Below, in pieces: positions 34,283-34,556 of a stretch of 34,556 bases of DNA. The stretch lies in the UHGV virus genome UHGV-0341486, one strand, 5' to 3'. The position numbers and the translations under genes were made by a program. The notes beneath the pieces were generated by a model that had not been told where the DNA came from, made no database searches, and saw only the letters and a program-made list of their open reading frames with translations. Each line of letters starts with the position of its first letter. The stretch's first letter is position 1. This stretch comes from a virus.

Positions 34283-34447
34283 ATGACACAGACAGAATCA
34301 GCGATTCTGGCGCACGCCCGGCGATGTGCGCCAGCGGAGTCGTGTGGCTTCGTGGTGAGAACGCCGAAGGGGGAAAGATATTTTCCCTGCGTGAATATCT
34401 CCGGTGAGCCGGAGGCGTATTTCCGGATGTCGCCGGAGGACTGGCTG
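34283..34447 (+). pseudogene. K: Tail assembly protein K, N-terminal 55 codons only (MTQTESAILAHARRCAPAESCGFVV…FRMSPEDWL), then loss of K-like reading
   Basis: Plus-frame match to recalled lambda K ends at about 34447; downstream plus-frame translation is unrelated. Confidence 0.75.
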
Positions 34448-34556
34448 CGGGCAGTCCGTCACCCCGTGCTCAAAGCACCGCCCGGTAAGATGCGGCACAC
34501 AGCGGAATTTATGAATCTCACCCCGGCAGACCAGCCACCACGGCAAATCGCTCTGC
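34448..34556 (-). pseudogene. K: Inverted internal fragment of K (minus strand encodes …QSDLPWWLVCRGEIHKFRCVPHLTGRCFEHGVTDC)
   Basis: Minus-strand frame open to the window edge encodes a conserved internal K segment (about codons 83-118) in reverse orientation to the K 5' part. Confidence 0.7.

What the first reader, a model, noticed from the sequence alone, without database searches (positions are those of the whole stretch)
34436..34556. Right window edge: tail gene K interrupted after codon 55 by an inverted internal K fragment
The plus strand encodes K residues 1-55 (to …SPEDWL at 34447). From 34448 to the window end the minus strand encodes an internal K segment (…QSDLPWWLVCRGEIHKFRCVPHLTGRCFEHGVTDC, about residues 83-118). 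The junction sequence CTGCGGGCAG is nearly palindromic. This implies inversion of an internal K segment, or a larger rearrangement. It would inactivate K and make the prophage tail-defective, or it is an assembly artefact. Having inverted fragments about 100 nt from both window ends is an unlikely coincidence and points to a common cause.
Basis: partly seen in the sequence, partly recalled or inferred. Interest (0 to 1): 0.5.

Follow-up and report, generated by a model that had tools for sequence, protein, structure and literature searches.

The report
Inverted read-length scraps at contig ends
The apparent break in prophage tail gene K is real in the sequence, but it is almost certainly a sequencing or assembly artefact, because an equivalent read-length inverted scrap sits at the other end of the window and no other assembly searched has either junction.

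Summary
The plus strand carries K codons 1-57 (34283-34454). The last 102-105 bases (34452/34455-34556) are the exact reverse complement of K nt 258-362.

Window 102-34454 is 100.000% identical, without gaps, over 34,353 nt to the icd-integrated lambdoid prophage of complete E. coli ST131-type genomes. In those genomes K continues normally.

The left end has the same anatomy. Bases 1-101 are the exact reverse complement of icd nt 894-994, which lie 184-284 nt outside the colinear part.

Both scraps are about one 101-nt read long and come from just beyond the contig end. Both point back towards the contig, as the mate of a paired-end fragment would. They are joined with 0 and 3 nt of overlap.

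Neither junction occurs in 5,426 complete E. coli genomes, IMG/VR, GTDB representative genomes or metagenome contigs. The normal K sequence across the breakpoint occurs in 81 public contigs, all colinear.

There are no inverted repeats or invertase crossover sites at the breakpoints.

Verdict: a contig-end chimera, not a K-defective prophage. Raw reads or PCR would settle it. Interest is low.

The parts
34283..34454 (+). 5' part of tail gene K (lambda gpK-like, Prok-JAB + NlpC/P60), nt 1-172, codons 1-57 plus 1 nt. It is colinear with the reference prophage.
   Evidence: 100% identical to L001 1584-1755 and L003 35413-35584. Pfam domains.
34452..34556 (-). Inverted scrap: reverse complement of K nt 258-362 (full residues 87-120). 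In the reference genome this sequence lies 86-190 nt beyond the colinear end. It is 102 nt long if the 3 ambiguous bases are given to the forward part.
   Evidence: 105/105 identity to L001 1945->1841 and L003 35774->35670.
34452..34454 (.). A 3-nt overlap (CAG) shared by the forward and inverted parts. The junction lies somewhere within it.
   Evidence: The two BLAST segments overlap at query positions 253-255. Sequence read.
1..101 (-). Twin artefact at the left end: reverse complement of icd nt 894-994 (codons 298-332). In the reference genome this sequence lies 184-284 nt beyond the colinear start. There is no overlap at the junction.
   Evidence: 101/101 identity to L002 1317->1217 and L003 1048->948.
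102..175 (+). Prophage-borne 3' end of icd (nt 1178-1251, including the stop codon). Positions 102-176 lie inside the 94-nt exact attL/attR repeat.
33580..34278 (+). Minor tail protein L gene, intact, immediately upstream of K.
   Evidence: ORF listing. Annotation of the identical reference sequence.

Best explanation
The K 'interruption' is a technical artefact at the end of a short-read contig, not a property of the prophage.

The window behaves like one whole contig. Its real content is bases 102-34454, running from the prophage-borne 3' end of icd to K nt 172. A stretch of about one read length (101 nt on the left, 102-105 nt on the right) has been stuck onto each end. Each stretch comes from the same locus a short way beyond the contig end: 184-284 nt on the left and 86-190 nt on the right. 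Each is joined in the orientation that points back towards the contig.

That is the geometry of read 2 of a paired-end fragment written directly after read 1 without reverse-complementing. If the colinear side ends with a 101-nt read, the implied fragments are about 385 and 291 nt.

The most likely sub-mechanism is that unsplit or mis-oriented read pairs, or an end-extension step that appended mates, added the pieces where the assembler had no other extension. A physically chimeric fold-back molecule picked up at a dead end is the alternative technical route.

Shown: the anatomy, its symmetry at both ends, the identity of everything else to intact genomes, and the absence of both junctions elsewhere. 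Inferred: that the window is a whole contig, the read length, and which pipeline step did it.
For: 1. Window 102-34454 matches NZ_CP184111.1 with 0 mismatches and 0 gaps over 34,353 nt. Both end pieces are perfect inverted copies of sequence lying just outside that block in the same genome (also with NZ_CP023844.1).
2. In those complete genomes K (744 nt, 'C40 family peptidase') and icd are intact and annotated.
3. The two ends mirror each other in length (101 versus 102-105 nt), in inward orientation, and in source distance (284 and 190 nt to the far edge).
4. 80-nt probes centred on each junction never align across the junction in 5,426 complete E. coli genomes. Best coverage was 54%, meaning one side only.
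5. The exact right-junction string is absent from IMG/VR, the GTDB representatives and the metagenome contigs. The left-junction string is absent from IMG/VR.
6. The normal K sequence across the breakpoint is present in 79 metagenome contigs and 2 genome contigs. All are colinear with the reference through K.
7. The left colinear boundary (window 102) lies 75 nt inside the 94-nt exact attL/attR repeat. This is a typical short-read contig break.
8. K-like sequence is multi-copy in these genomes, at 2-5 places per ST131 record.
9. Overlap at the junctions is only 0 and 3 nt. There is no inverted repeat inside the window and no crossover-site-like repeat at the breakpoints.
10. A real icd inversion would remove the last third of an important metabolic enzyme, which makes the left junction implausible as biology. 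Since the two ends share one cause, this counts against the right junction too.
Against: - No reads, assembly metadata or sister contigs were available, so the artefact is inferred from anatomy and comparison, not seen directly.
- The source contig could not be found in any searchable collection. That the window is a whole contig is therefore an assumption.
- The right scrap is 102-105 nt, not exactly 101.
- I could not show that the right colinear end (34454) coincides with a repeat boundary. The only second K copy I could read (EC958 Phi4) shares no exact run longer than 63 nt, and none at that position.
- The observed sequence is also what the first about 100 nt of an in-place 190-bp inversion would look like.
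- In a small control, 96 locus ends from 81 other public contigs showed no such strand switch. Only some of those locus ends are true contig ends.
Confidence: 0.88

Rival explanations
1. Still a technical artefact, but from a physically chimeric DNA molecule. A 3' end snapped back or switched template onto the complementary strand a few hundred nt away, during whole-genome amplification (MDA) or during end repair in library preparation. The assembler then used the chimeric read as the only extension at a dead end.
For: - Inverted two-segment chimeras with an intervening deletion are the main MDA chimera type. The preferred distance between segments is 80-280 nt (PMC5372508). The observed distances are 190 and 284 nt.
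- Sonication and enzymatic library preparation also produce reads that continue on the opposite strand nearby (PMC10908179).
- The right junction has a 3-nt overlap (CAG/CTG) that could prime a snap-back.
Against: - In MDA chimeras more than 95% of overlaps are 3-13 nt and only 0.4% have none. Here one junction has 0 nt and the other only 3.
- A junction at a random place inside a read would leave scraps of arbitrary length. It would not give 101 and 102-105 nt at the two ends.
- An E. coli isolate normally needs no MDA.
Confidence: 0.25
2. A real in-place inversion of a 190-bp segment inside K (nt 173-362) in the sequenced strain, which would truncate K and leave the prophage tail-defective. 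A separate real 284-bp inversion inside icd would be needed to explain the left end.
For: The sequence to the window edge is exactly what the first 102-105 nt of such an inversion would look like. The same is true for icd at the left end.
Against: - It needs two independent small inversions in unrelated genes, each cut off by a contig end about 101-105 nt past the junction.
- There are no inverted repeats at the breakpoints, only 3 and 0 nt of overlap.
- Neither junction is present in 5,426 complete genomes or in the other collections searched.
- Otherwise identical prophages have intact K.
- An inversion of unique sequence gives a short-read assembler no reason to stop about 100 nt later.
- An icd inversion would be strongly deleterious.
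Confidence: 0.03
3. Programmed DNA inversion by a phage invertase (Gin/Cin/Pin/Hin type), as in invertible tail-fibre segments, extended here to K.
For: ST131 prophages do carry invertase-driven tail-fibre switches, with 26-bp crossover sites and 2-3 kb segments (PMC4134206).
Against: - There is no crossover-site-like inverted repeat at K nt 172 or 362.
- No invertase gene is annotated in this prophage.
- Inverting an internal 190-bp coding segment would destroy K, not switch between alleles.
- The same anatomy in icd cannot be explained this way.
Confidence: 0.005
4. An edge effect introduced when the window was prepared, by some extraction or padding step and not by the assembler.
For: - Both anomalies sit at the extreme ends and have nearly equal length.
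- The source record could not be found.
Against: - The scraps are not reflections of the window's own ends. They come from sequence outside the window, skipping 85 and 183 nt.
- Their lengths differ (101 versus 102-105 nt).
- Padding or reflection would not produce this.
Confidence: 0.04

Closest known systems
Paired-end mates written head-to-tail (unsplit SRA-type spots or mis-oriented mates) and incorporated at contig dead ends
   Same: - Read 1 runs forward to its end. Read 2 follows directly, in reverse-complement sense, from the far end of the same 300-400 nt fragment.
- The scrap is about one read long (101 nt).
- The junction shows essentially no homology (0 and 3 nt).
- It is seen at both contig ends.
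   Different: - It cannot be verified without reads.
- The right scrap is 1-4 nt longer than 101.
- I found no paper describing this exact assembler behaviour, so the resemblance rests on geometry and general knowledge of read formats.
Inverted 'one-level' chimeras of multiple displacement amplification, and fold-back or strand-split library artefacts
   Same: Two segments from complementary strands of the same locus, with an intervening deletion. The segment distance falls within or near the preferred 80-280 nt (PMC5372508; PMC10908179).
   Different: - Those chimeras nearly always have 3-13 nt of overlap (0 nt in 0.4% of cases). Here the overlaps are 0 and 3 nt.
- They give no reason for read-length scraps at both ends.
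Invertase-mediated invertible segments of phage tail-fibre genes (Mu Gin, P1 Cin, e14 Pin; EC958 Phi1, Phi2, Phi4)
   Same: An inverted DNA segment in the tail-gene region of an E. coli prophage.
   Different: Those systems use 26-bp crossover sites within longer inverted repeats, an adjacent invertase gene, 2-3 kb segments and in-frame exchange of C-terminal alleles. None of these is present here.
Lambda gpK-type tail tip assembly protein (Prok-JAB/MPN + NlpC/P60)
   Same: The gene at 34283 is the 5' part of a 247-aa K homologue with both domains. It sits in the lambda order tape-measure, M, L, K, I, J.
   Different: Only codons 1-57 are colinear in the window. The rest is missing because the contig ends, not because the gene is broken.

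Membership tests
Contig-end chimera (technical artefact) | The anomaly sits at the physical end of an assembled sequence, and the interior is normal. | tested here: met
   Only bases 1-101 and 34452/34455-34556 deviate. Bases 102-34454 are 100% colinear with a complete genome. That the window is a whole contig is inferred.
Contig-end chimera (technical artefact) | The same anatomy recurs independently at unrelated loci, here at both ends. | tested here: met
   icd at the left and K at the right. Both scraps are inverted, face inwards, are 101-105 nt long and come from 86-284 nt beyond the end.
Contig-end chimera (technical artefact) | The junction is not reproduced in independent assemblies of the same element. 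| tested here: met
   No alignment crosses either junction in any of 5,426 complete E. coli genomes. There are 0 exact matches in IMG/VR, GTDB representatives or metagenome contigs. The normal junction is present in 81 contigs.
Contig-end chimera (technical artefact) | Reads do not support the junction at normal depth, or the junction coincides with the read 1/read 2 boundary. | not testable with these tools
   No reads or source accession are available. Look-ups of the chimeric ORFs found no record.
Real inversion by recombination between inverted repeats | Inverted repeats are present at the two breakpoints. | tested here: not met
   Only 3 nt (CAG/CTG) at the K breakpoints and 0 nt at the icd breakpoints.
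Real inversion by recombination between inverted repeats | A reciprocal junction is present downstream. | not testable with these tools
   The window ends before the predicted reciprocal junction at K nt 173/363.
Invertase (Gin/Pin/Cin/Hin) invertible segment | 26-bp crossover sites in inverted orientation, and an adjacent serine invertase gene. | tested here: not met
   No such repeats flank the segment. No recombinase other than the integrase is annotated in the identical reference prophage. Known site features are taken from PMC4134206.
MDA-type inverted chimera | Two inverted segments from complementary strands, lying within a few hundred nt of each other. | tested here: met
   The distances are 190 and 284 nt, against a preferred 80-280 nt.
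MDA-type inverted chimera | Overlap of 3-13 nt at the junction in more than 95% of cases, and none in 0.4%. | tested here: inconclusive
   The overlaps are 3 nt on the right and 0 nt on the left. One is at the low edge of the range and the other is in the rare class.
Lambda gpK-like tail protein (identity of the gene) | N-terminal JAB/MPN domain plus C-terminal NlpC/P60 domain, encoded between L and I. | tested here: met
   The intact reference K scores PF14464 at 4e-14 and PF00877 at 3e-12. The window's forward part is identical to its first 172 nt.

The most novel reading that the evidence does not exclude
The junctions are real. In that case the sequenced strain or population would carry short fold-back inversions (190 bp in K, 284 bp in icd), made with little or no homology, for example by replication template switching. 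The prophage would then have a truncated K and the host a disrupted icd.
Probability: 0.03. Interest if true: 0.3.

Novelty: not a real feature. Interest (0 to 1): 0.05.

Why it matters
It matters mainly for quality control. Taken at face value, this window would be annotated as a tail-defective prophage with a broken K gene, next to a broken icd gene. Neither conclusion is warranted.

The signature is easy to screen for. It is a read-length piece at a contig end that is the reverse complement of sequence lying a few hundred nt beyond that end. Any gene 'disruption' within about one read length of a contig end deserves the same suspicion.

If the pipeline that built this assembly does this systematically, other contigs from the same source will carry similar false truncations.

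Tried and rejected
- **Finding the source contig by its junction strings.** Nothing in IMG/VR, the GTDB representatives or the metagenome contigs.
- **Finding it by its chimeric ORF products.** I tried the 91-aa K fusion, the 57-aa icd fusion and the 82-aa antisense ORF. None is on record.
- **A caveat.** Their '0 places covering at least 80%' is not evidence on its own, because the tool does not join pieces on opposite strands. I re-tested with 80-nt junction-centred probes.
- **Explaining the right contig break by a second K copy.**
  - EC958 Phi4 K is only about 77-83% identical, and its longest exact run is 63 nt, located elsewhere.
  - EC958 Phi1 and Phi2 are myovirus-type and have no K.
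  - The EC958 papers give no coordinates for Phi5-7.
  - A further K-like place exists in many ST131 genomes, but the tool lists only the best place per record. This stays open.
- **A pure de Bruijn-graph explanation, with scrap length equal to k or to a 2k-1 bubble arm.** Rejected, for two reasons:
  - The two ends would need different k values (101 versus 102-105).
  - icd nt 894-994 is not repeated in an isolate genome.
- **One large inversion of the whole 34-kb block.** Rejected. The left scrap comes from icd and the right scrap from K, whereas one large inversion would put K-side sequence on the left and icd-side sequence on the right.
- **Window padding or reflection.** Rejected, because the scraps come from outside the window.
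- **Literature searches for a description of this exact assembler behaviour.** They returned only general chimera papers.

Full report
**What is in the sequence.**
The right end of the window reads as the first-stage reader said.
- An ORF starts at ATG 34283, directly after the minor tail gene L (33580-34278).
- Its first 172 nt are identical to the 744-nt K gene of complete E. coli genomes. That gene encodes a 247-aa protein with a Prok-JAB domain (E = 4e-14) and an NlpC/P60 domain (E = 3e-12), the architecture of lambda gpK.
- Colinearity runs to 34454, through codon 57 (...SPEDWLRA), not codon 55.
- The remaining bases to 34556 are a perfect reverse complement of K nt 258-362, which gives full residues 87-120. 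The match is 105/105 nt with E = 3e-50.
- Three bases (34452-34454, CAG) fit both parts.
- The near-palindrome CTGCGGGCAG is native K sequence, and the join did not create it.

**Context.**
- Window 102-34454 is 100.000% identical, with no gaps or mismatches over 34,353 nt, to NZ_CP184111.1.
- It is also identical at both ends to NZ_CP023844.1 and many other ST131-type genomes.
- In those genomes this is a lambdoid prophage integrated in the 3' end of icd: icd, int, xis..., terminase, head genes, tape measure, M, L, K, I, J. K and icd are intact there.

**The other end has the same anatomy.**
- Window 1-101 is the perfect reverse complement of icd nt 894-994.
- Colinear sequence begins at 102, which is icd nt 1178, and there is no overlap at the join.
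- In both cases the scrap comes from the same locus just outside the colinear block: 184-284 nt beyond it on the left and 86-190 nt beyond it on the right.
- In both cases the scrap is attached so that it reads back towards the block.
- The scraps are 101 nt and 102-105 nt long.

**Is either junction seen anywhere else?** No.
- The first searches cannot answer this, because the tool does not join pieces on opposite strands.
- I therefore used 80-nt probes centred on each junction. In 5,426 complete E. coli genomes the best alignments cover only one side of each probe, at 54% coverage.
- Exact junction strings are absent from IMG/VR, from the GTDB representative genomes and from the metagenome contigs.
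- The chimeric ORF products are not on record.
- A 48-mer spanning the normal K sequence at the breakpoint occurs in 79 metagenome contigs and 2 genome contigs. All of them are colinear with the reference through K.
- None of 96 locus ends in that set shows a strand switch. Only some of those locus ends are true contig ends.

**Why the sequence stops where it does.**
- The left colinear boundary (window 102) lies 75 nt inside a 94-nt stretch that is identical between attL and the icd remnant at attR. That is a normal place for a short-read contig to break.
- On the right, K-like sequence is present at 2-5 places in ST131 genomes.
- I could not read the copy that might explain the exact stop at 34454. 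EC958 Phi4 K is too divergent, with a longest exact run of 63 nt located elsewhere. Phi1 and Phi2 have no K. This point stays open.

**Mechanism.**
- The geometry is forward sequence to a point, followed directly by about one read length of reverse-complement sequence from the far end of a 300-400 nt span. This is what results when read 2 of a paired-end fragment is written straight after read 1.
- If the colinear side ends with a 101-nt read, the implied fragments are 385 nt (left) and 291 nt (right).
- The near-absence of junction homology (0 and 3 nt) fits a blind join.
- Physically chimeric molecules give similar inverted joins at similar distances. MDA chimeras prefer 80-280 nt, and library-preparation fold-backs behave likewise. 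However, MDA chimeras almost always have 3-13 nt of overlap (0 nt in 0.4%), and neither route explains read-length scraps at both ends.
- I rank unsplit or mis-oriented mates first and chimeric molecules second. Both are artefacts.
- A pure de Bruijn-graph explanation fails because the two ends would need different k values.

**Biological readings.**
- **Real in-place inversions.** A 190-bp inversion in K would look the same up to the window edge. It would need all of the following:
  - a second, independent 284-bp inversion in icd;
  - no inverted repeats at the breakpoints;
  - contig ends about 100 nt past each junction for no reason;
  - loss of an important metabolic enzyme.
  I give this about 3%.
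- **Invertase-type switching.** It occurs in the tail-fibre genes of ST131 prophages. It is excluded here by the lack of crossover sites and of an invertase gene.
- **One large inversion of the 34-kb block.** It is excluded because each scrap comes from the adjacent gene on its own side.

**Verdict.** The interpretation as a K-inactivating rearrangement is not supported. Only reads, sister contigs or PCR can prove it. Interest is low, and the value lies in not annotating a false gene disruption.

Noticed in passing
window 1-101: The left end carries the same artefact as the right. It is a perfect inverted copy of icd nt 894-994, joined without overlap to icd nt 1178 at window 102.
   Followed up: yes
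window 243-278: Three direct copies of TTCCCCAAAAC (243-253, 255-265, 268-278) lie between the icd stop/hairpin and the 3' end of the integrase gene (289-1431, minus strand). They are candidate arm-type integrase binding sites of attL.
   Followed up: no
window 199-222: A perfect hairpin, AAACGGGCGT-ATAA-CACGCCCGTT, lies just after the icd stop codon (173-175). It is probably the icd terminator carried by the prophage copy of the gene's 3' end.
   Followed up: no
window 102-176; L003 1213-1306 vs L085 about 3420-3513: attL and attR share a 94-nt exact repeat within a 199-nt stretch of 94% identity. The attR icd remnant lies about 47 kb downstream, beyond sitABCD, so the sit iron/manganese transporter lies inside the att-bounded element in NZ_CP184111.1.
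   Followed up: partly
window 9540-13091, 13128-14171 and 18289-18582 (from L003 annotation minus 1130): The identical reference prophage carries cargo genes: a 1183-aa inverse autotransporter and an alpha/beta hydrolase between the replication genes and the nin region, and the serum-survival lipoprotein gene iss next to the lysis genes.
   Followed up: no
L081 (PPYF01218827.1) 813/814: A 1,487-nt metagenome contig is 100% identical to the reference but lacks L003 35892-36102, a 211-nt stretch in the 3' part of K, reaching 10 nt into the K/I overlap. This is either a deletion variant or a misassembly.
   Followed up: no
L008 and L054 (PVML01016973.1): One 2.18-Mb metagenome contig holds two near-identical copies of this K region. 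This shows how often the L-K-I module is duplicated within a single genome.
   Followed up: no
L003 34706/34707, 36253, 39252, 39856: The homology blocks of many unrelated contigs start or end at the same positions: the start of L, inside I, and two points in J. These are recurrent mosaic boundaries of lambdoid tail modules.
   Followed up: no
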